IMG/VR virus record: IMGVR_UViG_3300028610_002655
Span: 1 to 51,665 of that record
Strand: one strand, 5' to 3'
From: a virus
Lineage: Duplodnaviria > Caudoviricetes
Length of the DNA: 51,665 nt
Shown: positions 1 to 39,405 of the stretch, in pieces
How positions within the stretch are numbered: position 1 is the stretch's first letter
How the letters are laid out: each line of letters starts with the position of its first letter
Notes under the pieces: model-generated
Told to the model about the DNA's origin: nothing
What the model saw: the letters and a program-made list of their open reading frames with translations, nothing else
The model's database searches: none
Position numbers and translations under genes: made by a program

Positions 1-144
1 AGAATGCACTTGAGAACCAAAATTGTCTTGAAAAGTGTGCCATCATTGTGTGATATTCAATACCTAAACATTCAAGCTCTATTGTTGTACCTTCATCTTT
101 GTCACTTGCAGGTAAAATTTTTTGAATTTCGTAAAATCTTATGT
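1..144. repeat. Terminal direct repeat, left copy (circular assembly overlap)
   Basis: Bases 1-144 are identical to 51522-51665. Confidence 0.97.
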
Positions 145-9696: not shown

Positions 9697-10794
9697 CTAC
9701 GCTGGTGTATCAAATGGAACAGTCATTCCAAAGTCTCTAGTTAATTTGGTTAACTGCTCCTTTACTGCAATATACTGATTGAAATCTAATTTCTTGACAA
9801 CTTCACCGTCTCTTTCCTCATCATAGTATCTTCTCATAATTACTGGTCCTTGACCTAATCTTAGTGCATTTGCCTTGTTGATTGCAAACATTACATCATC
9901 GTTTGTAATCATTGGATCAACTACTGCAGTAATTCCAGGAATTCCTGGAAATTGTACTACACCACCAGATGGCAATCTCATTGGAGCTAATCCAGATGGA
10001 CCACTGTTTTCAGTCCAAGTGTTTGATGTGTAATTAGCATACATTGTAGGAGACATTGCTACATGATCTATTGATACATCATTAGTAATCAAGAATGATT
10101 TGAACAAGTCCAAGAGATCATTACCTGTGTTATTAGTGGAATGGAAATTAGCTCCAATATCTGCAGGAGATCCTAACTGAACCTGAGTGTTTGCAATCTT
10201 TGTTAATTGGTTGATGCCTTCTTGGTTTCGTCTTCGCTTCATACCCCAATCTATCTGTGATTGGTCAATCTGTTGTGGATTGATGATAGTTCTAATCATA
10301 TCCTCAATTGGATTGTAAGTCTTACCAGTTAGTTTCTTTAAATCATATTCAATTTCATCATAGTTAGTTGTAGTTGATCTTGATTCCTCCATTCTATCAA
10401 GATATTCAACATCTTGAGTGGTGTCATAGAAAGTCTCTCGGAATTCTAACTGAGGAATGTCTCTGTGTATATACATTGCATCAATGTGGAAATACACATC
10501 AGGAACTCCTTGAGCTGCTTCAAATAATCTGATTAACTGCAAGTGTGTAATGTTTTCTGAATTTGCTATAGTAGTAGCTGCTGCAAGTGACAAATTCTCA
10601 TTAACAATTCTTGAAAACAATGCAGATGTCTTATCATGCATCGGCATTACCTTACCAGCTAGACCTTGTTTTTCTGGTTTTCGTAGTTTAGCATAAAGTT
10701 TCTGATTCTCTGGTATAGAGTTTTTGTGCTCACCTGTGTAAACTCTTCCGTCAGGAAGTACGGTAATGGCACCGTGATAACTATCGCCTTTCAT
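9697..10794 (-). CDS. Major capsid protein (HK97 fold inferred)
   Basis: 365 aa; last gene of the portal-protease-decoration-capsid series; HVAMSPTMY and PGIPGITAVVDP motifs. Confidence 0.8.
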   Translation of the reverse strand: MKGDSYHGAITVLPDGRVYTGEHKNSIPENQKLYAKLRKPEKQGLAGKVMPMHDKTSALFSRIVNENLSLAAATTIANSENITHLQLIRLFEAAQGVPDVYFHIDAMYIHRDIPQLEFRETFYDTTQDVEYLDRMEESRSTTTNYDEIEYDLKKLTGKTYNPIEDMIRTIINPQQIDQSQIDWGMKRRRNQEGINQLTKIANTQVQLGSPADIGANFHSTNNTGNDLLDLFKSFLITNDVSIDHVAMSPTMYANYTSNTWTENSGPSGLAPMRLPSGGVVQFPGIPGITAVVDPMITNDDVMFAINKANALRLGQGPVIMRRYYDEERDGEVVKKLDFNQYIAVKEQLTKLTRDFGMTVPFDTPA

Positions 10795-13196: not shown

Positions 13197-14948
13197 TTAC
13201 AGTTTACCTTTTTTCATGGTTATCTTTTCTGTTCCAGACCCAATACTCATTTTGTTTTTTCCACCCCCTCCAGGAATTGTTTCAGCATCAGTCTCTACCA
13301 TTCCAGGATAATTAATTAATCCCATTAGTTTTCCATACTCTGCATCAGTTAGTTGCTTTCTTGAGTCAATCTCATTTACTGCCTCTACCTTATCAAACCA
13401 CTCTGCAATGTTTAGATCCTCAAACTTCATTATCACTCGGAATTTCTTTAATAATTCCTTATCATCTTTGTTCATTATTCTAAACCACTTGTCATATGAT
13501 TGCGGAGATACTGAACGGTTAATCCACTCCCTCATTGGATTAATTGTAGTAGCTATTGCTAGCTGTATCTTACCAATCATGGTAGCACGATTACTAGCTG
13601 ATTCATCATAAAACATTGCATGAGGCATACCAAGAGTTGCTGCACAATATTTTACAAGTGACTCATTCATGTTGATAAAAGAATCCACTTCTGGCTTGTA
13701 GTCAATATTATCAAAGCGTGTAAGGTTTGGATCTTTCATCAGAATGTTTGTAGTAGCTGGAACCATTCTTTGAGATACTAGATCATATTCCTCTTCTTTC
13801 TTTGATGCAGTAGAGCCTTCTGGTTTTATTGAGAGTAATCCCAATCCAGAGTATGCGTTCTCACCCATTGCGACAAAATTAACACCGATGTTAGTTCTTA
13901 GAACTCGCAGAGAATCAATCATTGGGAGCATAAATGAATCACCGTACCATGTGGAGTTGTACGTGTTAGCTGAAATCAATGGATTCCACAGATATATTGA
14001 ATCCTGAATGTCTACAAATCCATTAGAGTTATTCCATTGGAACTGCTCAAGGCGTGATGTAAATGGGTTAGTCTTTATCATGCCCATTTCGCGTGCATGT
14101 GCGTTTTGCATGGAGCTTGGAATGTCTCCATAGTTTTTCTCATCAATGCTTACTGGTTCATCATATCGAGATAAAATGGCAGATCGATTAAAGGTAATTG
14201 CATTTAGAACTAGTGATGCAATTTTATCCTGAAATGAGATATCAAGGTATCCATCTTTATCAAATGATAATTGATTTTCTATCTGAATTAGATCACGAAT
14301 AATATCATCATGAGAATCTATCTCTTTTTGATTCTCTACTGAATCCTCTCCTGGATTAATTAACTCTAATTCTGGTTTGAATCCCCTGCCAACTAGAAAC
14401 TTTACCATGGAGCGTAATAATGGACCACCAATGGTACTACGTGAATGAGCTTCAAATGTTATGTAATCAAGTGATTGTGCAGGATTTGAGAAATATCGTG
14501 GAAACCATCTCTGCTTTGTATTTCTTCTGTATGTAATTTCTGCAGCGGACAATGGAGTGCCAGTTTTTTCATCATTAACTACTAGGTGCATGTATGGCTT
14601 CCAATGATTAACTATATCCTCATCATACGCTGTCGCATCACCAAAAACTGCTGGCTCAAACTTGCTACGCTTTCCTCTTAATGGTCCAGCTGCTGCTGCA
14701 ATACGGTATTCTTTTTTCTTTGTATCGGGATTTATGATCTCCTCTTTGATTCCATCAAATCCTTCCCAAGAAATAACTGACTGTCCATTTTCTTTTTTCT
14801 TTGAGAACTTTACTTTGAGTGTTAGATGTCTTGCTCGCCACACTTTGGTTCTATTGATATCAAACTTTAATGCAATTTGAGAATCTGTAAACTGTGGATA
14901 TCGTAAAATGTATTTTGCAATATCATGTAAAGAAGATTTTTTGTTCAC
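13197..14948 (-). CDS. Portal protein with an N-terminal HTH-like extension
   Basis: 583 aa, downstream of terminase; WYGDSFML and CAATLGMPHAMFYDESASNRAT portal-type motifs. Confidence 0.8.
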   Translation of the reverse strand: MNKKSSLHDIAKYILRYPQFTDSQIALKFDINRTKVWRARHLTLKVKFSKKKENGQSVISWEGFDGIKEEIINPDTKKKEYRIAAAAGPLRGKRSKFEPAVFGDATAYDEDIVNHWKPYMHLVVNDEKTGTPLSAAEITYRRNTKQRWFPRYFSNPAQSLDYITFEAHSRSTIGGPLLRSMVKFLVGRGFKPELELINPGEDSVENQKEIDSHDDIIRDLIQIENQLSFDKDGYLDISFQDKIASLVLNAITFNRSAILSRYDEPVSIDEKNYGDIPSSMQNAHAREMGMIKTNPFTSRLEQFQWNNSNGFVDIQDSIYLWNPLISANTYNSTWYGDSFMLPMIDSLRVLRTNIGVNFVAMGENAYSGLGLLSIKPEGSTASKKEEEYDLVSQRMVPATTNILMKDPNLTRFDNIDYKPEVDSFINMNESLVKYCAATLGMPHAMFYDESASNRATMIGKIQLAIATTINPMREWINRSVSPQSYDKWFRIMNKDDKELLKKFRVIMKFEDLNIAEWFDKVEAVNEIDSRKQLTDAEYGKLMGLINYPGMVETDAETIPGGGGKNKMSIGSGTEKITMKKGKL

Positions 14949-15241: not shown

Positions 15242-15925
15242 CTAAATATCTCTAAACGACAAACCACGTTTGTTTAAAATTAGTTTGTAATCAGCCATGC
15301 TTCTAGGTTCTTTTTTTCTTACTGGACCAATTACAGTAATTCCACCTCCTAACTTGTTTATCATATACTCCATTGTAACATCTAATGATAGCATCCATGC
15401 ATGTAATAGATCATTGTGTTTTCCCTTGTGCTCAAACTTTATGGAACCATCAGGGTTTAGTAAAATTTGTTCATTAACTATTTGTTGCTTTAGTGTTCTG
15501 ATATTGTCTCGCTCCATGGGATTTTCTATTTTATTATGGTCTGGGAAATTATATCCATTATCTAAAAAATTCTTTGAGCTCTTGGCCATCTGCATTTTGG
15601 TTCCAGCCTCACCTTTGGTAAATGGAGTCTTTTTGATTCTGTCCTCACCGTATTTCTCCTCTAAAAAATCAGCTAGTGTCTTTTCATTTGTATAGTCAAT
15701 GTTAATTACTCTAAAATCCGCATACTTTGATAGTACTCCTTCTGTTAGCTCATCCCAGGTTGAGGAGTATTTTCCTTTTTGTAGTTTGATTAGTTTTAAC
15801 AGTAATGGCATCCAGGGTTTCTCTTCAGGGATATCTGCAGGTAATGCATGTACTGCTATTCCGAAATAATCTCCAACTATTGCTGGGTCCATTCCAATAA
15901 ATAACTCATCGTCTCTAGTATTCAA
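15242..15925 (-). CDS. terL: Terminase large subunit, nuclease (RNase H-fold) domain as a separate gene
   Basis: FIGMDPA...D, NIDYT and KHNDLLHAW acidic motifs. Confidence 0.85.
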   Translation of the reverse strand: MNTRDDELFIGMDPAIVGDYFGIAVHALPADIPEEKPWMPLLLKLIKLQKGKYSSTWDELTEGVLSKYADFRVINIDYTNEKTLADFLEEKYGEDRIKKTPFTKGEAGTKMQMAKSSKNFLDNGYNFPDHNKIENPMERDNIRTLKQQIVNEQILLNPDGSIKFEHKGKHNDLLHAWMLSLDVTMEYMINKLGGGITVIGPVRKKEPRSMADYKLILNKRGLSFRDI

Positions 15926-16959
15926 AATGAATCATATGCCTCAGTAGCTTCTGGTGATGTTTGATTAATGGAATCTTTGTCAAACCATGTTTGGTCAGTT
16001 GAATAAAAGTCAGCCAAATAATACATTCCAAATAATACTCCCAGTCTGCGCTTTTCTTTTTCTATGAATTCTGGTGTAATCATTCCACAATCAATTCCAA
16101 CCTGATACGTGTATTTTCTAACCAAAAATCCAGAGGGAGTTTGAATCTTTTTTCCTTCTTCTAATTCTATAGTTATACCGTCTTGCTTTAGTGAATCATC
16201 CTCATCTACAATATTGAATACTGGTCCTGATGGTCCTCTTGGTGGACACTCTATAACTAAAGAGCCATCAGTGTTTGCTAGTCTACTAAATGCACCACCA
16301 AATGCTTCTACAAATCGCTCTTCAGTCATATCAGCTAAAGTAACATCAGACATGTGAATATGACAAACTCGCTTAAATGAAATTAAAGATCCTGCAGATG
16401 TTATCCCTAAAGCCACAATTTTAGTTGGAGTACCTGGATTCTCGGGGTTCCTCAGATAAATGGTATCAATTTTTGAGCGTTCGTCTTTTAATAGTTCTTC
16501 TTCTGTTACTGCCCTGTCAATTAAAAAGTCAGCATAGATAGAACTACCTATCATCTTTTTTAGATCTTGGATATGTTCTCGAGCTTTTTCTTTTGATTGT
16601 GATATTATTAAAATCTCTTTTCCTCTTCCTCGAGTTAATGCTATATGAAGATCTTCAAGCAATATCATAGTTGAGAGACCAATTTTTTGAGACTTTAGAT
16701 ATAACCTATACTGAGATATCCATCTGTCAGCCCATGTCTGAATTTGATGGTCAGCTAATACTGTTACATATTCATTTGTTTTTTGATTAACAAAAAATCC
16801 TACATTTAAATAAAACTCATCTAGTTTATCAGGAATCTCTTCAACTGATTGTAAGGTTAGCTCACGTATCTGATTTTTCTTTCTATCCTCTATTTCCTGC
16901 AGTCTTTGCTCTTCATCAGTAAAGGGATAAAATGGTATTTTCTGAGTTATTAATTTCAT
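15922..16959 (-). CDS. terL: Terminase large subunit, ATPase domain as a separate gene
   Basis: LADHQ adenine motif; Walker A-like KSQKIGLST; ILIISQSKEKA; coupling-like ECPPRG. Confidence 0.82.
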   Translation of the reverse strand: MKLITQKIPFYPFTDEEQRLQEIEDRKKNQIRELTLQSVEEIPDKLDEFYLNVGFFVNQKTNEYVTVLADHQIQTWADRWISQYRLYLKSQKIGLSTMILLEDLHIALTRGRGKEILIISQSKEKAREHIQDLKKMIGSSIYADFLIDRAVTEEELLKDERSKIDTIYLRNPENPGTPTKIVALGITSAGSLISFKRVCHIHMSDVTLADMTEERFVEAFGGAFSRLANTDGSLVIECPPRGPSGPVFNIVDEDDSLKQDGITIELEEGKKIQTPSGFLVRKYTYQVGIDCGMITPEFIEKEKRRLGVLFGMYYLADFYSTDQTWFDKDSINQTSPEATEAYDSF

Positions 16960-17432
16960 TTTGATTCTAACTTTATCATTCCGTGTTTTGCAATTACGAG
17001 CTGAAGATCTTCCTGGTTTTTGATGATAGATCTAATATAATCATAAGCAGACGATAGATACACCTGCAGGTTTTGTATTCGCTCAAGTATTGCTGATTGC
17101 AAAAATGGTTTTGGTTCTTCTCTGTATTTTTTCCATTGTTCTGCCTCTATTGTTTCGAGTGTTTTAATTCTCATCATGTGCTGCTCAAATAACCCATTCT
17201 TTGAGGTTATTTTGTAGCCTTCCTCTATCATTTTATCGTTTAATGTTTTTTTAATTTCATAATATCTACTTGTTTCAACAGATTTGTAGTTGGATTTGAT
17301 ATATACCAGTGACTCTTTTTCAGATAGCTTCATTACAATACATCTAAGGGTTAGCTGTTCGAGCTCTACCTTGTTTTGTTCTCTCTTTGATGGAATGAGT
17401 TTAGTGGAATTTTTATCCGTTTTTTTTCCCAT
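16956..17432 (-). CDS. Putative terminase small subunit
   Basis: Helical 158-aa gene coupled directly upstream of TerL. Confidence 0.6.
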   Translation of the reverse strand: MGKKTDKNSTKLIPSKREQNKVELEQLTLRCIVMKLSEKESLVYIKSNYKSVETSRYYEIKKTLNDKMIEEGYKITSKNGLFEQHMMRIKTLETIEAEQWKKYREEPKPFLQSAILERIQNLQVYLSSAYDYIRSIIKNQEDLQLVIAKHGMIKLESK

Positions 17433-23867: not shown

Positions 23868-23868
23868 G

Positions 23869-28831: not shown

Positions 28832-29188
28832 ATGAAAACTAGATATAAAATATTGATTATCGGAATAATTGTTTTTAGTATATTAGTTGTGATTCCACTT
28901 GCAATAACTTGGGGTACTGAATATAATTGTCGTATTAGTAAAGAAGTATGTACATGGTACGAGGTGCCAATAATTGGTTCAGGTTATTTTGACGGTGATC
29001 CAAAACCTGATGTTATTGAAGACCCAAATTCGAATTACATTGAACCAACTTATAATTATACAGGACTGGGAGATGATTGTACTTGGATAGACCATCCAGA
29101 TGATTGCTATGCAGTAGTACCAGAACCAATATGTGAGGAAGGACTTTACTATACTGACAGATATGGATGTAGTGAGTTTAGGAATTAG
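28832..29188 (+). CDS. Membrane-anchored Cys-rich acidic protein
   Basis: MKTRYKILIIGII N-terminal anchor; six Cys. Confidence 0.65.
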   Translation: MKTRYKILIIGIIVFSILVVIPLAITWGTEYNCRISKEVCTWYEVPIIGSGYFDGDPKPDVIEDPNSNYIEPTYNYTGLGDDCTWIDHPDDCYAVVPEPICEEGLYYTDRYGCSEFRN

Positions 29189-30401
29189 TCTTCTTCATCA
29201 CTAACTGATTGATATAATTCTTAATCTCATCAGTCATTGGTCCATTTGATTGCAGATCTCGCATCTTCTCAGATAGCTCATCAATCTTTTTCTCTTTTGC
29301 TTCTAGTTCACTAATTTTTGCTTGTTGCATCTTTAACTGTCTCCTTTGGCGCTCCTTTGTACTAATGGTTAATTGATCTATAGCTTTGACAAACTCCTTA
29401 AAACACTCTTGCCTAGTTGGAGTAAGATATGTACCATCAAGGCCTTTTTTGTGCTGCATCAGCTTCTCTGCGATATTGGAATTTACCTCAGAGTCAAGCT
29501 TGAGAATTGTATTGAATCTCTTTCTAAAGCCATGGTCTATCTGAACATCAAAGCGATTTCTCTTTTTAATTCTGGTAATTGATGTTCTTCCAAGTATTCT
29601 CTGCATTGTCTTTTGAAAGCCATTACCTGTCATCTGAAAGTATTTGCCATCTTTATCTACACGTAAAGATAAAAAGATTGGAGTGTTCTCATCAAATATT
29701 TCACCCCTCTTTTTTCTAAAGGCATGATAATTGTCAATTGCCATAGTTGCCTCTGGAGATGTAAAAACAAAATGAGAATAGTCATTTTCATCAATAATTT
29801 GCGAATCACTCCTAGTATCTTTTTCAGATATTGTCTCATCAGACTCTGCATAAATGAGAAATGCATAGCATTTCTCATCGTTAGGATCAAGCATAGCTAT
29901 CATGTGTTTCATTAATAATGGATGATTATGCACTCCAACCCTAGAGCCAGTTGATGCATGATAATGAATAACTGCAGTCTCTCTATGATTAATGCAGCTA
30001 TCAAGCATTGTATCAATTTTGGTGGTTTCCCAGGGTTTGTAGCCTGATAGTTTTTCTTCTGGCGGAAATTGTGCATAAACTGGCTTCCAAGATACTGCAT
30101 GTTCACGATAATTTACATCCAATAATTTTCGCATTGGTTTGAATTGTTTAGGTACAGTATTTGGTGAAATTTCATTAGCTAAAACTCGTTTTCTCAGGTG
30201 TTTCACATACATATCCATAAGGGACTGTAGATCTGTATCTGATACCTTGAGAAACTCTACTACTCCGGATATGTCAGACCATCTAAAAAATACTTTGAGA
30301 TAGCTGTTGTAAGTAGGTAAGCTGGTACGAGCTAGATTTGTGTCCTCCAAAAGAGTGATTTTTGTGCGTGGGTTTTCTAGGCCTTGTTGTAAGCTAATCA
30401 T
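29178..30401 (-). CDS. int: Tyrosine integrase
   Basis: STGSRVG (R), HGFRKRF (H-x-x-R), LMQH and GTY (Y); C-terminal coiled coil. Confidence 0.92.
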   Translation of the reverse strand: MISLQQGLENPRTKITLLEDTNLARTSLPTYNSYLKVFFRWSDISGVVEFLKVSDTDLQSLMDMYVKHLRKRVLANEISPNTVPKQFKPMRKLLDVNYREHAVSWKPVYAQFPPEEKLSGYKPWETTKIDTMLDSCINHRETAVIHYHASTGSRVGVHNHPLLMKHMIAMLDPNDEKCYAFLIYAESDETISEKDTRSDSQIIDENDYSHFVFTSPEATMAIDNYHAFRKKRGEIFDENTPIFLSLRVDKDGKYFQMTGNGFQKTMQRILGRTSITRIKKRNRFDVQIDHGFRKRFNTILKLDSEVNSNIAEKLMQHKKGLDGTYLTPTRQECFKEFVKAIDQLTISTKERQRRQLKMQQAKISELEAKEKKIDELSEKMRDLQSNGPMTDEIKNYINQLVMKKTNS

Positions 30402-31663: not shown

Positions 31664-31718
31664 CGTAACTCAAAATATAGCATATTTAATCCATATCCAG
31701 CCGCAAACCTGTTATCTA

Positions 31719-32702
31719 TTAAAACCCTCTAGTTTTATGGTTTAACTGAAATTCTTGAGGTACAAAATCACTATGTGGAGTTTGATCTACAACTGCGAGA
31801 CCAATTTCACGAAGTGAATTAAAAATTAAATTATTTGATTCAATATGTATAATGTTTCTTGGACGTTCTGATTCTTCATAACACCAAGTATGAGTATTGA
31901 ATATTTTACCAGGAGGCATTATTGCTGGTAATTTAGTATTAGGTCGGACATAACCTGGAGATATTAGATGTGGTCCTATTAACCCAGCCAAGATGTGATT
32001 TGATGCAAATGGGGGTGCATTACTTCTGAGTGGTTTTACCGAAATTATATTACAAAGAATTTTTTTATTTGCTAATTCACTGGAAAGAATTGACATATTT
32101 CTTGGAAATTGGGAGAAACCACCCCATTCAACATTGAATGCTTTGAATTCTTTCTTAATTACAAGTTTAATTTTTTCTTGAAACAACTCTGGATTTTCCG
32201 TTCTAAGACTAATTGTAGGACATTTAATTTGATCCGTTTCCATTTCAAGAAAATTATCCAATTGTCTTTCAAATTCTGAAGCTGATTGGTTCTTGTCAGG
32301 TTCCATATCCGATAGAAATGTTGTTTGTAATTCTGTTTGTATTTCCAAAGACAGTTGACGAGTACGTTCATCAACATGATTAGAATCATAATAAAAATTT
32401 ATACCTGTAATTTTTGGATCTTTCTTACTAACTATATTTTCAAAATCTTTTCTAATAGCAGTTCTTTTTGCCACATCAGTTAAAGGCTTTGCATTTGATG
32501 CAGTCTGATCAATATAATAATAAAAGATTTCACTTTCTAAATCAATTTGTGTATCATGTGATTTTTTATAATCAGATTTATTTGAGCACAAATATGGACA
32601 TTCAAATTCAAAATCATCAATCATTGCTTTAAGATAGTTAGAAGTGAATTTATTTTCAGGGTTAGTTAATGATCTATTATCAATAATTACAAGTTCTGGC
32701 AA
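31719..32702 (-). CDS. Hypothetical protein, possible TIM-barrel fold
   Basis: 327 aa with alternating strand/helix pattern; no motif recognised. Confidence 0.5.
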   Translation of the reverse strand: MPELVIIDNRSLTNPENKFTSNYLKAMIDDFEFECPYLCSNKSDYKKSHDTQIDLESEIFYYYIDQTASNAKPLTDVAKRTAIRKDFENIVSKKDPKITGINFYYDSNHVDERTRQLSLEIQTELQTTFLSDMEPDKNQSASEFERQLDNFLEMETDQIKCPTISLRTENPELFQEKIKLVIKKEFKAFNVEWGGFSQFPRNMSILSSELANKKILCNIISVKPLRSNAPPFASNHILAGLIGPHLISPGYVRPNTKLPAIMPPGKIFNTHTWCYEESERPRNIIHIESNNLIFNSLREIGLAVVDQTPHSDFVPQEFQLNHKTRGF

Positions 32703-32788
32703 TACAGTGTAATAATTTAACTACGCTATAAATGATCCACCGATCTGGTTAGAATCTGATCTGTAACTAACTAAAATACTCTCTAAAC

Positions 32789-32808
32789 AGATCAAACCAA
32801 ATAGATCA
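32789..32808. promoter_or_regulatory. GATC-pair operator copy inside a cluster of six GATC sites
   Basis: AGATCA AACCAAAT AGATCA. Confidence 0.55.
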
Positions 32809-32855
32809 TTATGGCTATTGACTGATCTGTTCAAATCCCTGCATATGGTTATTGA

Positions 32856-33074
32856 TTATTTTTTGGCTCTTCGCTTCTTGTTTAATTCTGGTGCATGCTT
32901 GTAATAGTATTCCAGGCTTGTCGTGTTGCGTTTTGTCTTGTCTTTATAATGCCTATTCAGGGATGATGCTCTTTCTTCTGTGATGTTTTGTTGATATCGT
33001 AGCTTGCGCTTTCTTTTAATCTCATCTTTGTTTTTTTCATAATAATTTTGACGGGTGGTTGTATAAGTTGACAT
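32856..33074 (-). CDS. Basic helical-repeat protein (YYEKNK repeats; no nuclease domain)
   Basis: YYEKNKDEIK, RYQQN and YYYKH repeats resemble DNA-binding arms of phage HNH proteins. Confidence 0.55.
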   Translation of the reverse strand: MSTYTTTRQNYYEKNKDEIKRKRKLRYQQNITEERASSLNRHYKDKTKRNTTSLEYYYKHAPELNKKRRAKK

Positions 33075-33077
33075 TTT

Positions 33078-33102
33078 AAAAAAAAGAAAAAAGGGGGAAA
33101 TT
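33078..33102 (-). terminator. Oligo-T terminator after the S-layer gene
   Basis: Pyrimidine tract TTTCCCCCTTTTTTCTTTTTTTT just after the stop. Confidence 0.6.
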
Positions 33103-33113
33103 TGAACTAGTTT

Positions 33114-36100
33114 CTAACTTACGTTGACAGTTATACTAACTGGTGGTGATAATGCCGTTGGATTATCAACAGACTCCCAAACAAATACAGTAGCAGTGTA
33201 TGCTCCTGCTTCACTTGGTGTCCATGATACCGCTGGGCTGAATGATTGACCACTTGTTAATGAACCTGTAATCCAGTCTAATTTGACTGTAACACCGTCA
33301 CTATCCTGAACCTGTAACAAGTATGCGAATGCTTGCTCTCTATCCTGACCATTTATCAAGTCAGCAGTGAGTTGTACCTGTTGGTCAACTGTAACAACAT
33401 CTAAGCTGTTACCGAAGGCATCAACGGTTCTCAAGTTAGCAGCTGGTGCTCGCTCAAGAGGTGGTACTATCGTGCCGATTAGTGTAGTGGCAGTAATATC
33501 AAGTTCATCTGCAGTTGTGTACGGATCTGGTAGTGTATTGTCCTCATATTCTGCGGTGACAGTGTCACCTTCTGCGACTCTGAGTCTGTGACCAGATGAT
33601 TCATCGGAGGTTGTGAAGAACACAGTACCTTCGAATATTCCGGTTGCCTCATTAGTCTCAGTTACAGTAAGGTCAATACCTCCGGCATCGGAGTCAGACC
33701 ACACATCGACAGCAAAGTTGTCGACTGCTTCTGGATTAAAGTTCATATCTGGATCAATTATTCTAACAACACCTGTTCCGCTAGCTGGATAGCTTGCTTC
33801 AAGCCACTGAGTTTCACCTATATTCCATCTGATAAGTGCTGAACCAATTACAGTTTCATCCTCTGAGAATTCAAAGGATACTGTAAGTCCGTCATCATCA
33901 TCTGCTGGTAATAGTCCATCTGTTGGACCACCATTATCTAGGGATATAGCACCTGTTGCGTCTGTTTCAGTACCATCGCCATCTGCATCATGTTCAGGAA
34001 ATCCTGTAAGGATTACTTCACCTGTGAAGATGCCTGTGTCAGTTCCAGTTTCAACGAGTTTGTAATTGTCAATATCAGAACCTCGAGTTGAGACCTTTAT
34101 TGGGTCTGCAGCTGTGTTTCCAATTTCGTCAACTAAATCACCGTCAAAGTTGTGATCTGGAGCGACTATGGTAATGTAGACTTTATCAGTCCATGTGTAA
34201 ACTTTTTGGTCAAGCTCTACAGTTGCACCGAAGTTTGAAGTAAAGATTGTAACATTTACATCTTCATCTTCATCACCTACATAGTTTGATCCGGATGGAC
34301 CCCAATCAGTATATTCTAATACGATTTGTTCACCTCTGTTAAGGTTGTTACTATCTAGTTCCGCAGGAATCTCAATGACTACTTGGAAGATACCAGTAGA
34401 GTCACCAGTTTCTCTGAAGCTAGATGGTTCTGGATCAAAGTTAAGATCTTTACCCAATGTGGTAATAGCTGCATCAGAATCCCATTCAATCAAGTCCAAG
34501 GAATATGATTCTGCACCATCATTGTCCAAATCAAAGTCTGGCTCAATGAGTGTTAAAATCATATCAGAACCGATAAGATATACGGATTTGTCTGATTGCA
34601 ATACACCATTTCTTAGGTCAAATGTAGCTGAATCTGTGACAGTATTTGGTTCACCTGAAGCATCAGTTGGATCAGTGTATTCTACAGTGAGAATATCTCC
34701 TTGTAAGATACAATGTTTATCATCGTTTGATGCACCTGCAATACGGTCTGATACTATAGTACCTTTAGTAGTTGGACATGCTGAACTTACTGGGCCATCA
34801 GTGAATCTGATAGTCAAATCAAGTTCAAATATACCAGCATCAGGTGCAATCTCTAAGATTGGACCTAATTCTAGTGTATTATCAATTACATCCTCGCCTA
34901 TAGTAATTTGTTTACTATTTGCACTAGATGCTCCTGCTGTTGCAAGAACTACATGATTGGAGCCTCTACTAATAGTGACCTTTACAGGACCATTATCTGT
35001 AGATTCTTCTATCTTATCCTCACCATTTGGAGCTAAATCAAAGTCTGGATCATTGACTCTAATATGTACAGTCAAATCACCAACACCTAATTCACCACCA
35101 GCAGTAGCATGAAGTGGGAAGTATGATTCTCCTTCAGCGGATGTACCATATGGTACTGAATAGACAGTTCTATCAAATGCGACAGAACCTGTATTTGCAC
35201 TTATACCTGCAGAATCACCTGTTTCTATAGTTTCACCAGATGCATCTCTAAAGTCTTGATAGTTAACTTCAAGATCAACTCCTGTTACAGAATCGATTTT
35301 AAAGGTGTCACCATCAGGCTGACAGTATGTTTTTGGAATTTGGAATGTTCCAATAAATACACCAGTAGAGTCACCAGTTTCTATAATAGTACTCATAGAG
35401 CCAAATAGACCACTTGCACCATCGCAAGATTTCCATTTAGCATCATTGAAAGTAATATCAAGAAGTAATGATCTACCATCACCAATACTATCTGATTCTC
35501 TTACTACATAGACATCAGGAAGTTCGCTGTCGGTATTGAGATCAGGGTCGTTAACTGTTACAATAACAGTATCTGCAACTTTGTAGTTTGTACTATCAAA
35601 TGTTACCATACCCGAATAAGTTGGAGCATCTTCTTTGGCAGATATTGTGGTTTGTTCACCCTCATTATCTGTATCTAAGTAGACTATCTCAACTGCATCC
35701 TCATCAGTCAAATCTTCATGAACTATTACATCAAGCTCATCACCTATTGTTTCAAGGCTAGCGAATGTATCAGCATTAAAGATATTGATTTGATTTAGCA
35801 TAATGTATTCGACTGTACCAGTGTATATTCCACTAACTGAAGTAGTTTCTTCTGCTTCAAATCTGTATATTGCATCGTTGTAACGTTTACCATCACTTGA
35901 TTGTCCAAATGTAAGGATATCAAAGACGACGTTAAATGATTTACCTTTTAGACCTTCAGAATCAACTGTGATAACAAGATTTCCTGATGTTATATCATCA
36001 ATTACATCTTGATTAACGTAGATTAATCCTTGATCATCCAATTTTAATCCGTTAACGGATGCAGTTATTTGATTTAGGGATCTAATATCATAGTTAATCA

Positions 36101-37991
36101 GTGTATGGACACCATCGACATTTACAAAGTCATCTAGTATGTTAGAAGAGATTCCAGTATCAATTACAACTGTAGGGTTAGCATCAGGTGTAATGGGAGT
36201 GGCATCAATTCTTAATATTTTACTAAATTGTGTAACAGTAAATGTTGCTGGAGCATTAGTTGAAGCACTATTTAGTGAATCATTTGTAGCTTTAATTTGC
36301 TCAACCAAACTAGTTTGTTCAACAATTGCAATATCTAGCTTTGACTTTACTATTAATTCTGTAGGAGTAAATAATGCAGTAATCTCTTCTGCAATTTGAT
36401 TTACTCCAATAACTGCATTATCTAACAATGCCTGTTTGGCATCTATGGCTCCTTGTGTAGCACCTCGTAGCCATAAATCGTCAAGTTCAGTACTGTTAAC
36501 AATGACAAAGGCGTCCCACTTTGTTTGATTTGTGTTAAGAACAGCTGCATTGGTATTAGATTCAATTTCGGTCCAAGCGGTTTGATTGTCAAAAACCCAT
36601 TTATCTACAATGGTTTCTCTATCAGTTAATTCTTTGAGTGCATTGACTAAGTCAGTTGTATCCATTTGTCCAGTTATAGTAACAACACTTGTTGATTCAA
36701 GAGTTGTTGGACTACCAATTTCTATTGTTGGAATTACAGTAAAGATTGCATCACTAACATCAAAGTCATTGTCGAGTTTTGTGTTAGTATTTGCGTCTTG
36801 ATCTGTAATTACAACAGTAAGTGGTTCTCCAGAACTCCATTCACCATCAATGGATGCAATATCCATATCAATTGTACCACCAAAGTATTTTACAAAAATA
36901 CTTGATTTGTCAGCATTGTACTCAATAATTCCACTTTTGTCTCTTATTTTGGCATCAGTTGTAAACAAATCAGATTTATCTGAATCGTCTGTATTATCAA
37001 ATACACCACTATTTGGTGCTGATTCTGTAACTACTATAGCTGGTCCATAGTCAACTGATGTGAAATGATCATCGTTTGGTTTTAAAACGAGCACATTTTT
37101 TACATCAAGATCTAAGAATCCATTATCATCATAATACAAAGCATTTTGCTTTGCTGGTGTAATGTCAGCTAAAGTAGTGAGGTCAGTGGTTTCATCAACA
37201 ATACCATACCATGAAGTTTTATTCTCGACATTGAATGTCCAAGTATCTTCATCAGTAGGGTCGATGTTTAGTTGCATGTCATCAATGACTAGATGAATAT
37301 CTGCATTGTGTGCATAATCATTTTTGTCTAGACTGTATGATGCAAAGTCATCCATATCTTCTGTGTAGGTAAGACTGACTACTTGATCAGGACTACCACC
37401 ATAGATTACAGCAACTGTTTGAGCATCAGTGAAGGAGAATGTTTGGATAAATGGCCATTTGTCTTCATCTGAAGATTTAAGCTCAATTTGTCCCAAATCA
37501 CCTTCACCGCCAGGATTAGCATAAGAGTTTTTGTTGAGACTACGTTCATTGTTTAGAACATTTTGTCTATCATCTCCATTACAGAAAACCTCAGCTGCGT
37601 CATCAAAGTCACCCTTAACCGTAAGTGTTTTAGTACAATCTACACCAAAATCAATATTCGTGTTAGGTAAAGCATCTACTACATTTTGAGCAGCAACATA
37701 TGCATACCATGATCCATCATCGCCTTGTGCCATGACTAGATCATCACCATCAATAGTTACATTTGGTTGACCCTTTGATTCATCAGTTTGACGAATACTT
37801 GGATCATTCACAACAATCTCAAGGACCATTGGACCACCAAAGTTAACGCTTGACACATACAGATTTGCTGTTTGTGTTACTTCAGCTGAGGCAGTTGGCG
37901 TAAAGCCTGGAAAGGCAATAGTCATACCGCCTGCTAGCATGATTGTCATTAGTGTTAGACTAGTTATTTTTCGTTGTATTTCGTTATTCAT
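33114..37991 (-). CDS. Nitrosopumilus-type S-layer protein (Nmar_1547/NmSLP-like), likely start MNNEIQRK
   Basis: N-terminus MNNEIxRKITSLTLMTIM.AGG; repeated V.DPD.N...ETGDSTG.F Ig-like units; C-terminus VWESVDNPTALSPPVS.TVNVS; very acidic. Confidence 0.9.
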   Translation of the reverse strand: MNNEIQRKITSLTLMTIMLAGGMTIAFPGFTPTASAEVTQTANLYVSSVNFGGPMVLEIVVNDPSIRQTDESKGQPNVTIDGDDLVMAQGDDGSWYAYVAAQNVVDALPNTNIDFGVDCTKTLTVKGDFDDAAEVFCNGDDRQNVLNNERSLNKNSYANPGGEGDLGQIELKSSDEDKWPFIQTFSFTDAQTVAVIYGGSPDQVVSLTYTEDMDDFASYSLDKNDYAHNADIHLVIDDMQLNIDPTDEDTWTFNVENKTSWYGIVDETTDLTTLADITPAKQNALYYDDNGFLDLDVKNVLVLKPNDDHFTSVDYGPAIVVTESAPNSGVFDNTDDSDKSDLFTTDAKIRDKSGIIEYNADKSSIFVKYFGGTIDMDIASIDGEWSSGEPLTVVITDQDANTNTKLDNDFDVSDAIFTVIPTIEIGSPTTLESTSVVTITGQMDTTDLVNALKELTDRETIVDKWVFDNQTAWTEIESNTNAAVLNTNQTKWDAFVIVNSTELDDLWLRGATQGAIDAKQALLDNAVIGVNQIAEEITALFTPTELIVKSKLDIAIVEQTSLVEQIKATNDSLNSASTNAPATFTVTQFSKILRIDATPITPDANPTVVIDTGISSNILDDFVNVDGVHTLINYDIRSLNQITASVNGLKLDDQGLIYVNQDVIDDITSGNLVITVDSEGLKGKSFNVVFDILTFGQSSDGKRYNDAIYRFEAEETTSVSGIYTGTVEYIMLNQINIFNADTFASLETIGDELDVIVHEDLTDEDAVEIVYLDTDNEGEQTTISAKEDAPTYSGMVTFDSTNYKVADTVIVTVNDPDLNTDSELPDVYVVRESDSIGDGRSLLLDITFNDAKWKSCDGASGLFGSMSTIIETGDSTGVFIGTFQIPKTYCQPDGDTFKIDSVTGVDLEVNYQDFRDASGETIETGDSAGISANTGSVAFDRTVYSVPYGTSAEGESYFPLHATAGGELGVGDLTVHIRVNDPDFDLAPNGEDKIEESTDNGPVKVTISRGSNHVVLATAGASSANSKQITIGEDVIDNTLELGPILEIAPDAGIFELDLTIRFTDGPVSSACPTTKGTIVSDRIAGASNDDKHCILQGDILTVEYTDPTDASGEPNTVTDSATFDLRNGVLQSDKSVYLIGSDMILTLIEPDFDLDNDGAESYSLDLIEWDSDAAITTLGKDLNFDPEPSSFRETGDSTGIFQVVIEIPAELDSNNLNRGEQIVLEYTDWGPSGSNYVGDEDEDVNVTIFTSNFGATVELDQKVYTWTDKVYITIVAPDHNFDGDLVDEIGNTAADPIKVSTRGSDIDNYKLVETGTDTGIFTGEVILTGFPEHDADGDGTETDATGAISLDNGGPTDGLLPADDDDGLTVSFEFSEDETVIGSALIRWNIGETQWLEASYPASGTGVVRIIDPDMNFNPEAVDNFAVDVWSDSDAGGIDLTVTETNEATGIFEGTVFFTTSDESSGHRLRVAEGDTVTAEYEDNTLPDPYTTADELDITATTLIGTIVPPLERAPAANLRTVDAFGNSLDVVTVDQQVQLTADLINGQDREQAFAYLLQVQDSDGVTVKLDWITGSLTSGQSFSPAVSWTPSEAGAYTATVFVWESVDNPTALSPPVSITVNVS

Positions 37992-38086
37992 GTTATTAGT
38001 TTTCAATTAAAAAGTTAGTATATAAAATGAATGAACGATTGATTCTTGATTTTGCCAAATATTTTATAAATTATTAAATTAGCAAA

Positions 38087-38174
38087 GTGAACAGGCATCA
38101 AATGAAAAGTTCAAACCAAACTACTGCTGACAATTCTGAGGGTATTTGGATATTTCCCTATCTAGCCTGTTCAT
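38087..38174 (+). ncRNA. Candidate structured small RNA divergent from the S-layer promoter
   Basis: GTGAACAGGC/GCCTGTTCAT closing stem and inner CCAAA(C)TACT/GGTATTTGG stem; G-U pairs favour +; TTTATAAA at 38063-38070. Confidence 0.45.
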
Positions 38175-38210
38175 CTATTGATTTGAAAAGAACTTTAAAA
38201 ACATATAGTA

Positions 38211-38789
38211 TTATTTTTTTGTTAATGAAGCGATATTTCTAGGATCAAAGAGAACTATACTATCACAATCCCATGTGTTAAAAATAGTGTGCATATGCAG
38301 CTTCCATGAATTCTCATAGTATATTCCATCACAAATATTAAATGCATTGGACCATATCATTTTGGGTGTAACTGGATTACCTTTTTTGAATTGCTCAAAT
38401 TGATAATGTGAAAAATTAACCAAGTCACTAATATTAAACTGGAATCCTGGATTATAATCTCTAATGTCAGGTAGTAAAAATTGTACCAATTCATCAGCAT
38501 CATCAACTGTTGATATTCTGATAAATAACAGATTTGCCTTGAGATACACATTACATATTGTTGAATTTTGTATGTCTCGGAATTCCTCTGATTCACACCA
38601 TCTCTCCCAATCACCATTTACTGATATCCAAAATCCAGGTGGTTTGTAAATTAATGCCTTATCCCCTAGATCGGATAGCATGATATCATTTTTTATCATA
38701 CCCTCATATCCTTTTTGTGTGGTTGTATGGGTTAGAGGTGCTGTGATGTACTGAGAATTAATAAAATTCAATTGACATTCCATTCTCAC
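38211..38789 (-). CDS. Phage hypothetical protein (KPxGxWxS...DGI...WDxxS pattern)
   Basis: YKPPGFWIS, CDGIYY and TWDCDSIVLFDP motifs. Confidence 0.6.
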   Translation of the reverse strand: MRMECQLNFINSQYITAPLTHTTTQKGYEGMIKNDIMLSDLGDKALIYKPPGFWISVNGDWERWCESEEFRDIQNSTICNVYLKANLLFIRISTVDDADELVQFLLPDIRDYNPGFQFNISDLVNFSHYQFEQFKKGNPVTPKMIWSNAFNICDGIYYENSWKLHMHTIFNTWDCDSIVLFDPRNIASLTKK

Positions 38790-39367
38790 CTTAATGTCTC
38801 AACATCTGCTGGTTTGTAAAACTGTAATACAGGACAATACTTTCCTTTTCTTGCTTTAAGATATTCTAGTGCTAGGTTGTGATGTTTTGGTTTTTGATTT
38901 TCCATTAATTTAATTTTGTATTTTCTTGCACGATTTTCAACTAAATAATTTATAATTGCATTACCAAAAATTAAAAAGAATGCCAACCCAAACTGAAAGG
39001 CCATCAGATAATAATTCTCTCGAAACAAATACACTATACCAGCCCCAAACATTGCAGCACTAGCGATTACTCTTACTAGTTTTGAGCTTACTTTAATTGC
39101 AGGCCATTTTATTTTAATTGGCCTTTTATGATATAGGGCATCAAGAAAATTATAAACAGGCACACACACTTTTCTGATTACCACCATAGAGGGATATGCA
39201 TAACAACACAAAACTACACTCCAGAAATATTTACAGAGTGTGATATTTTTTGGTACAATCTTTACGCCAAAATGCTCATAATCTTTTGCATACTTTTGAA
39301 AGTACCATTTACCCATAACATAAAACACTAGTCTATAATGCCAGGATCTTACGCTGATAGGATTCAA
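38786..39367 (-). CDS. Phage membrane protein
   Basis: Hydrophobic helices; LCKYFW and YLKARKGKYCPVLQF motifs. Confidence 0.65.
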   Translation of the reverse strand: MNPISVRSWHYRLVFYVMGKWYFQKYAKDYEHFGVKIVPKNITLCKYFWSVVLCCYAYPSMVVIRKVCVPVYNFLDALYHKRPIKIKWPAIKVSSKLVRVIASAAMFGAGIVYLFRENYYLMAFQFGLAFFLIFGNAIINYLVENRARKYKIKLMENQKPKHHNLALEYLKARKGKYCPVLQFYKPADVETLR

Positions 39368-39405
39368 TGTAATTTTAATAATTTCAGATATAAAATAAAA
39401 TACTT

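What the first reader, a model, noticed from the sequence alone, without database searches (positions are those of the whole stretch)
33114..37991. Virus encodes a full-length host-type S-layer protein
Seen: an intact ORF of about 1625 aa, nearly 10% of the genome, with its own TATA box and terminator inside a circular viral contig. Established: its termini and Ig-like repeats match the Nitrosopumilus S-layer protein, the main envelope layer, which is negatively charged and binds ammonium. Inference: lysogenic conversion of the cell surface, either excluding competing viruses or changing ammonium capture. I do not know of a described tailed archaeal virus carrying a whole S-layer gene, but I cannot search for one.
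Basis: partly seen in the sequence, partly recalled or inferred. Interest (0 to 1): 0.86.

Follow-up and report, generated by a model that had tools for sequence, protein, structure and literature searches.

The report
Archaeal virus carries host S-layer gene
A head-tailed virus of ammonia-oxidizing archaea, like at least seven related viral contigs, carries a complete and well-preserved copy of its host's cell-coat (S-layer) gene, so these viruses may be able to alter the surface of the cells they infect.

Summary
Window 33114-37991 (-) is an intact 1625-aa ORF. It matches the solved Nitrosopumilus maritimus S-layer protein (PDB 8c8k, E=0) from the signal peptide to the C terminus.

The contig is a real virus genome. 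It has an exact 144-bp terminal repeat, an HK97-fold capsid protein confirmed by fold search, and a terminase-like gene. Relatives of its 583-aa portal-sized protein occur in 9 of 401 genomes of the host family.

The gene is not an assembly accident. Seven other virus-like contigs carry full or near-full SLP genes, four of them in the same slot of a head-gene module. A complete relative without an SLP has only 33 bp at that slot.

The virus captured the whole transcription unit. A host-type promoter (palindrome plus TATA) and an oligo-T terminator are conserved between host and viral copies.

Five viral SLPs form a well-supported clade that contains no gene of known host context. They evolve under purifying selection (dN/dS 0.29-0.39). 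The window's copy keeps 505 of 517 host-conserved positions.

The function is inferred, not shown. The most likely role is export into the infected cell's S-layer to change its outer face and exclude further viruses. Lysogeny is not established. I found no prior report.

The parts
33114..37991 (-). Complete S-layer protein (SLP) gene, 1625 aa, homologous to N. maritimus NmSLP
   Evidence: Open frame. PDB 8c8k E=0, 1458 bits. It retains 505 of 517 positions that are >=95% conserved in 21 host SLPs. Net charge -211.
37884..37991 (-). N-terminal signal-peptide region (residues 1-36), nearly identical to the host SLP leader
   Evidence: Residue-by-residue alignment to 8c8k residues 1-36. The same MNNE..RKITSLTLM start is seen in 5 other viral SLPs and in 5 of 6 host SLPs compared; the L003 start was not resolved by my script. 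No signal-peptide predictor was run.
38019..38050 (-). Host-type SLP promoter: palindrome-like motif GAATCAATCGTTC (38045-38033) followed by the TATA-like box TTTTATATA (38027-38019)
   Evidence: Sequence. The same layout appears upstream of 5 host and 5 other viral SLP genes: GGAC-N5-GTCC or GAAC-N5-GTTC, then TTTAAATA/TTTATATA, then AATAACATG.
33078..33113 (-). Conserved 3' untranslated stretch and oligo-T terminator (C5-T6-C-T8 at 33097-33078)
   Evidence: Sequence. A near-identical 'aactagttcaaatttcc..tttttt.ctttttttt' follows the stop of 5 host and 3 other viral SLP genes.
32856..33074 (-). Small, very basic ORF (72 aa) directly downstream, co-inherited with the SLP in other viruses
   Evidence: 51% identical to the ORF after the SLP in G001. 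Homologues follow the SLP in L078 and L079. It is absent from all 37 host SLP loci. No family hit.
9697..10794 (-). Major capsid protein, HK97 fold (virus hallmark)
   Evidence: AlphaFold2 model with mean pLDDT 81.7. Foldseek against PDB: Haloferax tailed virus 1 capsid 8qpq E 7e-12, HK97 1ohg E 2e-10, 339 matches at E<=0.001.
15922..17432 (-). Terminase large subunit-like gene, possibly in two ORFs (16956-17432 and 15922-16959)
   Evidence: PHROG phrog_2, E 3.2e-10, for 15922-16959. 85% identical in the related virus G002. The upstream ORF has no hit.
13197..14948 (-). 583-aa structural-module protein (portal-sized; function inferred) with proviral relatives in host genomes
   Evidence: 90% identical in G002. 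Homologues in 9 of 401 genomes of the family of a Nitrosopumilus MAG, several with internal stops.
1..144 (.). Direct terminal repeat, identical to 51522-51665
   Evidence: Exact 144-nt match of the two ends. The record is classed 'direct terminal repeats'.
29178..30401 (-). Possible tyrosine recombinase (weak lead only)
   Evidence: NCBIfam NF001399 E 0.0039, 16.5 bits against cut-off 279. An HGFRKRF...GTY motif was read by eye in the translation. No PDB match.

Best explanation
What it is (shown): a lineage of head-tailed (HK97-capsid) viruses of Nitrosopumilaceae carries a complete transcription unit for the host's main S-layer protein. The unit comprises a host-type promoter, the Sec-type leader, the whole multi-domain acidic body and the host-type oligo-T terminator. 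In one virus group it sits as a two-gene insert (SLP plus a small basic ORF) between conserved head-module genes. The viral copies are intact and form their own clade as far as gene context is known. They are under purifying selection comparable to host copies.

How it most likely works (inferred): the gene is transcribed by the host machinery from its strong SLP-type promoter in the infected or lysogenic cell. The protein is exported through its conserved leader. It is built into or beside the host lattice through the conserved C-terminal two thirds (70-79% identical to host SLPs). It then displays a divergent N-terminal part on the surface; residues 37-440 are at most 50% identical to anything found in 401 host-family genomes. 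This would change what later virions meet at the surface, giving superinfection exclusion or receptor conversion, while keeping the negatively charged ammonium-trapping layer working.
For: Identity of the gene: PDB 8c8k E=0 over residues 1-1625 in 5 stretches. The pore pair D73/E74 of NmSLP (paper PMC11153153, section 5 read in full) aligns to D70/E71, and D70 is invariant in 17 of 17 aligned SLPs. Net charge is -211.

Virus status: exact 144-nt DTR, HK97-fold MCP, TerL-like gene, and a structural module 60-90% identical to viral record G002.

Not host DNA: 0 of 37 host SLP loci share any other window ORF within +-6 kb. The conserved host neighbours are absent from the viral contigs.

Recurrence: SLP genes lie in viral context in 8 contigs: the window, G001, L078, L079, L052, L050, L064 and G249:C59. 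G001, L078, L079 and L052 have it in the same slot. The complete relative G003 has a 33-bp gap at that slot.

Promoter and terminator are shared by host and viral copies.

Clade: IQ-TREE SH-aLRT 99 for 16 rows, of which 5 are viral, 11 of unknown context and 0 known host. FastTree gives the same clade at 98, plus one 974-aa chromosomal protein. Among rows of known context the split is 5 viral/0 host inside and 1 viral/14 host outside; Fisher p = 0.0004, but the rows are not independent.

Selection: NG86 dN/dS is 0.29-0.39 for 7 viral pairs and 0.23-0.31 for 3 host pairs. The window's protein keeps 505 of 517 host-conserved positions (97.7%); the host leave-one-out mean is 97.5%. GC3 is 0.22, like the other window genes at 0.21.

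Assembly: in run X1, 100%-identical Logan unitigs tile the flanks (depth 21.9-29.2) and the SLP-specific interior (15.6-22.3). One unitig (32878-33147) bridges the 3' junction.
Against: There is no evidence of expression, export or incorporation; the mechanism is inference. No host SLP close to the viral one is known (best full-length non-self identity 60%), so compatibility with a host lattice is assumed.

Eleven clade members have unknown context. Two sit on contigs of 107.7 and 112.1 kb and one 974-aa member on a 1.39-Mb contig. These could be cellular, which would weaken the idea of a viral clade.

The SLPs of L079 and L064 fall outside the clade. The L064 copy keeps only 311 of 413 host-conserved positions.

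Synonymous sites are near saturation (dS 0.35-1.5), so dN/dS is rough. SLP divergence between related viruses (54-67%) is within the range of neighbouring genes (45-92%), so there is no sign of special diversifying pressure.

Assembly caveats: the SLP interior depth is slightly below the flanks. The listed 5'-side unitig (37972-39263) reaches only 20 nt into the CDS. The conserved stretches 33148-34288 and 37728-37971 are not covered by any listed unique unitig. An allele switch inside them therefore cannot be excluded from contigs alone. X1 may be the source sample.

No integrase was confirmed.
Confidence: 0.5

Rival explanations
1. Auxiliary-gene reading. The virus supplies fresh S-layer subunits to keep the ammonium-concentrating layer, and so the energy supply, intact during a long infection after host transcription is shut down. 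This would resemble psbA in cyanophages or amoC in other Thaumarchaeota viruses.
For: The protein keeps the strong negative charge, the pore residues D70/E71 and 97.7% of host-conserved positions. The S-layer binds and channels ammonium (PMC11153153, abstract and passages). AmoC-carrying thaumarchaeal viruses are cited as precedent in PMC6563490 (passage).
Against: An S-layer is a stable structure that mainly needs new subunits for growth. A replacement subunit would be expected to be nearly identical to the host's. Yet the viral N-terminal part is at most 50% identical to anything in the 401 family genomes searched, and the viral copies form their own clade. SLP carriage is rare: 4 records found in the IMG/VR scans, and 0 of 3 related viral records searched have it.
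Confidence: 0.2
2. Egress or decoy reading. The viral subunit is a lattice-disturbing or shed variant. It would either weaken the S-layer at the end of infection to let virions out, or be released as a decoy that soaks up competing virions.
For: Lysis systems of tailed archaeal viruses are poorly known (my own knowledge). The N-terminal part, which forms the hexamer centre and the outward domain 4 in NmSLP, is the divergent part. The window also encodes a secreted alpha-lytic-type S1 peptidase. The viral protein has fewer N-glycosylation sequons than host SLPs, 8 against 11-27.
Against: Retention of host-conserved positions equals that of hosts, which argues for a normally assembling subunit. 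The promoter is the host SLP type rather than a shared viral late-gene signal. The peptidase gave no match in G001, G002 or G003.
Confidence: 0.1
3. Virion component. An SLP-derived protein on the particle docks into the host S-layer by the same contacts that hold the lattice together.
For: In G001, L078, L079 and L052 the gene lies inside the head-gene module.
Against: The export leader is fully conserved, and tailed virions assemble in the cytoplasm. The gene has a host-type promoter and terminator. The whole length is conserved, including the C-terminal domains that face the membrane in NmSLP. In the window the gene is not in the structural module.
Confidence: 0.07
4. Passenger or artefact. 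The gene is either a recent, functionless capture of host DNA or an assembly chimera between a virus and an abundant host.
For: Host SLP sequences are very abundant in the same run, with summed depth up to 704 over the conserved C-terminal part. This creates shared k-mers where assemblers can switch. The interior depth (15.6-22.3) is a little lower than the flanks (21.9-29.2).
Against: Eight contigs carry SLP genes in viral context, from several different metagenome or assembly records judging by their differing record prefixes. There is a clean empty site in G003. Both viral flanks contain the SLP ends in unitigs at viral depth. Selection is purifying. GC3 equals that of the viral genes. No closer host sequence than 60% exists among 5.8 billion clusters.
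Confidence: 0.05

Closest known systems
N. maritimus S-layer protein NmSLP (Nmar_1547; PDB 8c8k; von Kugelgen et al., Nature 2024, PMC11153153)
   Same: Homologous over the whole length (E=0). Same leader, acidic character and pore residues. The C-terminal 765 residues are 70-79% identical to host SLPs. Same promoter and terminator layout as chromosomal SLP genes.
   Different: It is encoded in a virus genome and lacks the conserved chromosomal neighbours. Residues 436-686 do not align to NmSLP. That stretch is predicted as a four-helix segment (local pLDDT about 75-92 in an otherwise poor model), an architecture shared with the chromosomal SLPs of L005 and L003. It has fewer sequons.
Putative S-layer-type protein Gene_23 of the OM43 myophage Melnitz (Buchholz et al., AEM 2022, PMC9004378; passages seen)
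   Same: A virus-borne gene annotated as an S-layer protein, for which the authors postulated alteration of surface receptors and protection against superinfection.
   Different: That case is a bacterial phage with an annotation-level call only. No homology to a structurally defined host S-layer protein is stated in the passages I saw. Here the gene is a full-length orthologue of the host's main SLP with its regulatory signals, and it recurs in a virus lineage.
[quoted passage not shown] 2019, PMC6563490; figure legend and passages seen)
   Same: Mobile elements of the same host phylum can carry an SLP-type gene.
   Different: Those are integrated cryptic elements without virion genes. I could not see which protein is meant; figures and supplements are not held. 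Here the carrier is a capsid-encoding virus genome with terminal repeats.
S-layer genes on mobile DNA in haloarchaea (review PMC13437554, passage seen)
   Same: [quoted passage not shown] It takes this as a hint of horizontal transfer.
   Different: Those are the cells' own primary SLP genes in cellular replicons, not an extra copy inside a virus genome.
Prophage-mediated surface (serotype) conversion and superinfection exclusion in bacteria (own knowledge, not from a call)
   Same: The proposed logic is the same: a virus-borne, independently transcribed gene changes the receptor layer.
   Different: Known cases modify or mask receptors (O-antigen modification, small membrane proteins). None that I know replaces the main envelope lattice subunit itself.

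Membership tests
Nitrosopumilus-type S-layer protein (NmSLP family) | Sequence homology to NmSLP over the full length | tested here: met
   8c8k_A E=0, 1458 bits, stretches covering 1-121, 161-264, 319-435, 687-1625. 1613 homologues were found, the named ones from Nitrosopumilus, Nitrosarchaeum, Nitrosotenuis and Nitrosopumilaceae.
Nitrosopumilus-type S-layer protein (NmSLP family) | N-terminal export signal | tested here: met
   Residues 1-36 align almost identically to the NmSLP leader. This rests on homology only; no predictor was run.
Nitrosopumilus-type S-layer protein (NmSLP family) | Array of ten Ig-like domains | tested here: inconclusive
   Most of the chain aligns to NmSLP domains. 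Residues about 446-576 are predicted as four long helices (fragment model, mean pLDDT 56, about 75-92 locally). The same insert is present in the host SLPs L005 and L003. Pfam sees only a sub-threshold PKD hit.
Nitrosopumilus-type S-layer protein (NmSLP family) | Strongly acidic surface and acidic pore residues (Asp73/Glu74 in NmSLP) | tested here: met
   17.8% D+E, net charge -211, pI about 4.05, like 6 host SLPs compared. D70/E71 align to D73/E74, and D70 is invariant in 17 of 17.
Nitrosopumilus-type S-layer protein (NmSLP family) | Retention of positions conserved in cellular SLPs | tested here: met
   505 of 517 positions (97.7%) against a host leave-one-out mean of 97.5% and range 88.4-99.8%.
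Nitrosopumilus-type S-layer protein (NmSLP family) | Chromosomal SLP locus with conserved neighbours | tested here: not met
   0 of 37 host loci share a neighbouring gene with the window. The host neighbour set was defined. This is the point of the finding: the gene is an SLP gene outside the cellular locus.
Nitrosopumilus-type S-layer protein (NmSLP family) | Forms the hexagonal lattice on cells and binds ammonium | not testable with these tools
   Needs expression, cryo-ET or binding assays.
Head-tailed dsDNA virus (HK97-fold capsid, terminase packaging) | HK97-fold major capsid protein | tested here: met
   Model with pLDDT 81.7. Foldseek PDB top hits are all capsids, with HFTV1 8qpq at E 7e-12 and prob 1.00.
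Head-tailed dsDNA virus (HK97-fold capsid, terminase packaging) | Large terminase | tested here: met
   phrog_2 E 3.2e-10 for 15922-16959. The G001-group TerL gives phrog_675 E 4.2e-29. There is no Pfam hit and no GenBank phage match.
Head-tailed dsDNA virus (HK97-fold capsid, terminase packaging) | Portal and tail genes | tested here: inconclusive
   Only weak hits: tail fibre phrog_26419 at E 7e-5 and virion structural protein phrog_10356 at E 3e-14. The portal is assigned by size and position only.
Moron / host-derived auxiliary gene in a virus | Discrete insert with its own promoter and terminator between conserved viral genes, absent from close relatives | tested here: met
   G001 21190-26387 (SLP plus small ORF) against a 33-bp gap in G003 between homologous neighbours. 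Promoter and terminator. Related records G002, G003 and G004 gave no SLP match.
Temperate virus / lysogenic conversion | Integrase and attachment site, or an integrated copy carrying the SLP | tested here: inconclusive
   Weak recombinase lead only. No tRNA gene in the window. Homologues of a structural gene lie in 9 of 401 host-family genomes, but none lies next to an SLP of the viral type in the 5 genomes checked.
Superinfection-exclusion system | Reduced adsorption or entry of a second virus | not testable with these tools

The most novel reading that the evidence does not exclude
Viruses of ammonia-oxidizing archaea maintain their own long-lived pool of complete S-layer genes, each a distinct clade member carrying host-type expression signals. 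They use these genes to re-coat the infected cell with a different outer face. They also occasionally swap these genes with hosts: the SLP of the G001-type virus L079 lies outside the viral clade. Viruses would then be both users and drivers of S-layer diversity in one of the ocean's most abundant cell types. A possible side effect is a change in the ammonium-trapping properties of infected cells.
Probability: 0.3. Interest if true: 0.85.

Novelty: new variant of a known kind. Interest (0 to 1): 0.75.

Why it matters
The S-layer is the only wall of these archaea. It is the first thing a virus touches, and according to the 2024 structure it is also the device that concentrates ammonium for nitrification. 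A virus lineage that carries the whole gene with the host's own expression signals suggests a new form of surface conversion in archaea. It gives a concrete handle on two open questions: what tailed archaeal viruses of AOA use as a receptor, and why SLP N-terminal domains are so variable.

It also shows that a very large host structural gene (4.9 kb, about 9.5% of the genome) can be stably kept by a 51.5-kb virus. Pfam has no model for this protein, and its identity was fixed structurally only in 2024. Annotation pipelines would therefore call it hypothetical, which may explain why I found no report of it.

Tried and rejected
Bacterial promoter and terminator scan: not relevant to archaea. It found 31 promoter-like sites against 22.9 expected and 3 terminator-like sites against 2.6. 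I did not use it.

GenBank phage collection: no match for the SLP, the TerL-like protein or the 583-aa protein.

RNA evidence: no RNA holder was listed for 31500-39500, so nothing can be said about expression.

Runs X2-X4 hold only small shares (0.05-0.06). When laid, they mostly cover the conserved SLP C-terminal part at 90-95% likeness, with a few short pieces on flanking genes. I draw no habitat or strain conclusion from them.

Stretches 33148-34288 and 37728-37971 have no listed unique X1 unitig. The table is truncated (1708 rows not shown), so this is not evidence of absence.

Fragment model of SLP residues 300-880: mean pLDDT 56, too poor for a fold search. Only the helical segment is quoted, with that caveat.

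Names for the closest homologues: the listing of cluster members gave no accession and no informative name for 10 of 10 proteins; one was labelled only 'hypothetical protein'.

Integrase: nothing in PDB.

GC bump of the gene as a sign of foreign origin: rejected. Host SLP genes are also GC-richer than their flanks, and GC3 matches the viral genes. The per-region GC lines at the end are wrong because gap codons were included; ignore them.

Special diversifying pressure on the viral SLP: not supported.

Complex prediction was not used. The chains are too long, and a pass would rest on likeness to 8c8k.

Context was examined for only 11 of the 28 metagenome loci. The other 17 are short or partial and were not classified.

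Trees. One search used 53 rows: P0001-P0034, P0120, the 13 of my 20 chosen large-contig proteins not already among those, and 5 locus-derived proteins, out of the 120 listed hits. One search used 35 of these; L064, P0014, P0035, P0036 and others were left out. One search left out P0014, P0035 and P0036.

Papers. I saw passages only for PMC6563490, PMC13437554, PMC11706807 (reference list only), PMC12647753, PMC10541130, bioRxiv 10.1101/2024.04.23.590705 and PMC9004378. For PMC11153153 I saw section 5 in full plus passages. Supplements were not seen, and Krupovic 2019 data files may say which SLP is meant. The statement that I found no report of a virus-borne SLP in archaeal viruses rests on searches. 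The papers of Lopez-Perez et al. and Ahlgren et al. on marine thaumarchaeal viruses were not read.

The tallies include eight genomes flagged unpublished (G265, G084, G100, G234, G345, G099, G263, G212). No individual claim rests on them.
Full report
**The observation**

The ORF is real. The ORF listing gives 33114..38006 on the minus strand. From the ATG at 37991 it translates to 1625 residues without a stop. Pfam has no model for it; the only hit is a sub-threshold PKD match. NCBIfam gives only a distant, far-sub-threshold match to an anammox S-layer family.

Against the sequences of solved structures it matches chain 8c8k_A with E=0 and 1458 bits. Five significant stretches run from residue 1 to residue 1625. 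This chain is the cell-surface protein of Nitrosopumilus maritimus, described as NmSLP/Nmar_1547 in PMC11153153.

The leader MNNEIQRKITSLTLMTIMLAGGMTIAFPG is almost identical to that of NmSLP. The acidic pair that lines the central pore of NmSLP (Asp73/Glu74) aligns to D70/E71.

The protein is as acidic as cellular SLPs: net charge -211 and 17.8% D+E. It has fewer N-x-S/T sequons, 8 against 11-27.

Only residues about 436-686 fail to align to N. maritimus. They do align to the chromosomal SLPs of two Nitrosopumilus MAGs, L005 and L003. In a poor fragment model they form four long helices that are locally confident. This architecture therefore belongs to a cellular SLP subfamily and is not a viral invention.

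**Is the carrier a virus?**

- The window is held as a virus record with direct terminal repeats and 100% estimated completeness. I verified an exact 144-nt repeat at its ends.
- ORF 9697-10794 was modelled from 38 homologues (pLDDT 81.7). Its best structural matches are capsid proteins only: Haloferax tailed virus 1 at E 7e-12 and HK97 at 2e-10.
- ORF 15922-16959 hits a large-terminase PHROG (3.2e-10). 7608-8513 hits a virion structural protein, and 48973-51567 weakly hits a tail fibre.
- The module from 2.3 to 17 kb is 60-90% identical at the protein level to another viral record, G002.
- The 583-aa protein of this module has homologues in 9 of 401 genomes sampled from the family of a Nitrosopumilus MAG, several interrupted by stops. 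This ties the virus group to that host family and shows that relatives integrate.

**Is the SLP gene really part of the virus?**

None of 37 cellular SLP loci shares any other gene with the window within 6 kb. Cellular loci have a conserved set of neighbours, and the viral contigs lack it.

SLP genes sit among viral genes in seven further contigs:

- G001 (36 kb) and L078 (32 kb).
- L079 (44 kb).
- L052, L050 and L064.
- G249:C59, a 25.7-kb contig binned in a family MAG. It carries a primase-helicase, an exonuclease and a terminase upstream of its SLP.

In G001, L078, L079 and L052 the SLP occupies the same slot, between a 568-aa protein and a head-morphogenesis-type protein. The complete relative G003 (48 kb) has the same neighbours with only 33 bp between them. 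The insert is therefore a two-gene cassette: the SLP plus a small, very basic ORF.

The window carries the same cassette in another genomic neighbourhood. Its 72-aa ORF at 32856-33074 is 51% identical to the G001 one.

Independent unitigs of the run that holds 94% of the sampled words (X1) tile the region at 100% identity. Depths are 21.9-29.2 on the flanks and 15.6-22.3 on the SLP-specific interior, and one unitig bridges the 3' junction. Caveats:

- The listed 5'-side unitig reaches only 20 nt into the CDS.
- Two conserved stretches are not covered by a listed unique unitig.
- X1 may be the source sample.

An allele switch inside the conserved part cannot be ruled out from contigs alone. The presence of an SLP gene in the virus can hardly be an artefact.

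**What exactly was captured?**

The 55 nt before the ATG and the 40 nt after the stop are conserved between cellular and viral copies. Upstream there is a palindrome-like motif (GGAC-N5-GTCC in hosts, GAAC-N5-GTTC or mixed forms in viruses), then a TATA-like box about 30 nt before the ATG, then AATAACATG. Downstream there is 'aactagttcaaatttcc' followed by an oligo-T tract. Beyond these limits the viral and cellular sequences differ.

The virus therefore holds the whole SLP transcription unit, roughly window 33078-38050.

**Evolution**

In a FastTree tree of 53 SLPs and an IQ-TREE tree of 35, five viral SLPs (window, L050, L078, G001, L052) fall in one clade. It also holds 11 proteins of unknown context, on contigs of 4.8-112 kb. 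Support is 98 and 99. No SLP of known chromosomal context is inside it in the IQ-TREE tree. In the FastTree tree one 974-aa protein from a 1.39-Mb contig is.

The sister clade holds chromosomal SLPs. The SLPs of L079 and L064 lie elsewhere, which suggests more than one capture or an exchange with hosts.

For residues 37-440, the seven best matches in my collected set for five of the six viral SLPs tested (not L079) are viral or of unknown context. Among 401 family genomes the best identity for this region is 50%, and that hit is the virus-like contig G249:C59.

Pairwise dN/dS is 0.29-0.39 between viral copies and 0.23-0.31 between cellular ones, with dS near saturation. The window's protein keeps 505 of 517 positions that are at least 95% conserved in 21 cellular SLPs, the same rate as cellular SLPs left out one at a time. 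GC3 (0.22) equals that of the other viral genes (0.21). The gene is therefore old in viruses and kept functional.

**Mechanism**

Shown: an intact, exported-type, lattice-type subunit gene with host-type expression signals, kept under constraint in several viruses.

Inferred: it is made in the infected or lysogenic cell, exported, and joins the S-layer through its conserved C-terminal two thirds. It then shows a different N-terminal part at the surface. In NmSLP the N terminus forms the hexamer centre, domain 4 projects outward, glycans cover the outer domains and the last domains face the membrane.

I judge receptor conversion or superinfection exclusion the most likely purpose, at about 0.5 including uncertainty about everything else. 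Less likely are maintenance of the ammonium-trapping layer (0.2), an egress or decoy role (0.1), a virion component (0.07) and a passenger or artefact (0.05).

Lysogenic conversion as such is not established. Only a weak recombinase lead exists at 29178-30401, and there is no tRNA gene.

**Comparison with what is known**

I found no report of an archaeal virus carrying an S-layer gene. None of the four papers listed for NmSLP/Nmar_1547/Nmar_1201 concerns viruses, judged from titles and abstract starts. The nearest precedents are:

- A putative S-layer-type gene annotated in the bacterial phage Melnitz, with the same superinfection idea.
- An 'SLP' in a cryptic integrated element of Thaumarchaeota, seen in a figure legend.
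- Haloarchaeal primary S-layer genes on mobile DNA.

I rate the finding a new variant of a known kind (host-derived moron or surface conversion), with a high but not extreme interest of 0.75.

Noticed in passing
window 39618-40508 (-), with 40477-41340 (-) next to it: The 296-aa ORF matches NCBIfam NF052498 'TIGR-Tas system RNA-guided endonuclease' at E 4e-44 and 151 bits, above the cut-off of 100. PHROGs calls it a transposase, and it has a weak IS110-like hit. It and the neighbouring ParB-like ORF are conserved at 64-77% in the viral records G001 and G003. The ParB-like ORF alone was also found at 70-77% in L043 (a stretch of G003) and L044.
   Followed up: partly
window 43905-44273: A tandem array with periods of 42, 84 and 126 nt (5.7 copies of 42 nt, 68% matches) lies about 3.5 kb from the Tas-like gene and inside or over ORF 43736-44395. 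I did not test whether it is a guide array.
   Followed up: no
window 27034-28218 (+), the only large plus-strand gene: A secreted S1 serine peptidase of the alpha-lytic protease type. It has an N-terminal hydrophobic leader and the motifs MAGHC and GDSGAP. PDB alpha-lytic protease matches at E 1.2e-6 over residues 200-370. The Atlas gives feature score 0.96 and structure TM 0.61-0.67 to S1 peptidases. It is a candidate envelope-degrading enzyme for entry or release. No match was found in G001, G002 or G003.
   Followed up: partly
upstream of SLP genes: window 38033-38045; loci L002, L078, L079, L050, L052, L004-L008, L021: The palindrome in front of the TATA box changes in step on both arms between hosts (GGAC...GTCC) and several viruses (GAAC...GTTC). 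This is what a conserved regulator-binding site would look like.
   Followed up: no
window 15922-17432 (-): The terminase-like gene may be split into two overlapping ORFs, of 158 aa and 345 aa with a 4-nt overlap. Only the second hits a terminase family.
   Followed up: no
window 2-394 and 48973-51663 (-): One gene runs across the ends of the record. The frame is open at both ends and is joined by the 144-nt repeat, as expected for a circularly permuted or circular assembly.
   Followed up: no
window 47434-47949, inside ORF 46934-48976: A 219-nt tandem repeat (2.4 copies, 83% matches), giving a repeated 73-residue unit in a 680-aa protein that hits phrog_13925 in four stretches.
   Followed up: no
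genome G374: One 2.5-Mb genome of the host family holds more than twelve full-length SLP paralogues, whereas the other four genomes looked at showed one clearly full-length copy each.
   Followed up: no
window 38962 joined to 34253 in run X1 (table 5c): One contig of depth 9 joins the gene upstream of the SLP to the SLP's C-terminal third, with 26 other letters between them. It may be a related virus with a shorter or rearranged SLP. It remains unexplained.
   Followed up: no
SLP residues about 446-576 (window about 36264-36656): A predicted four-helix segment replaces the stretch that in N. maritimus cannot be aligned. It is present in a subfamily of cellular SLPs (L005, L003) as well as in the viral ones.
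   Followed up: partly
viral record G002 (27950 bp): It is classed as having direct terminal repeats but is only 57% complete by CheckV. It shares the window's structural module but none of the rest.
   Followed up: no
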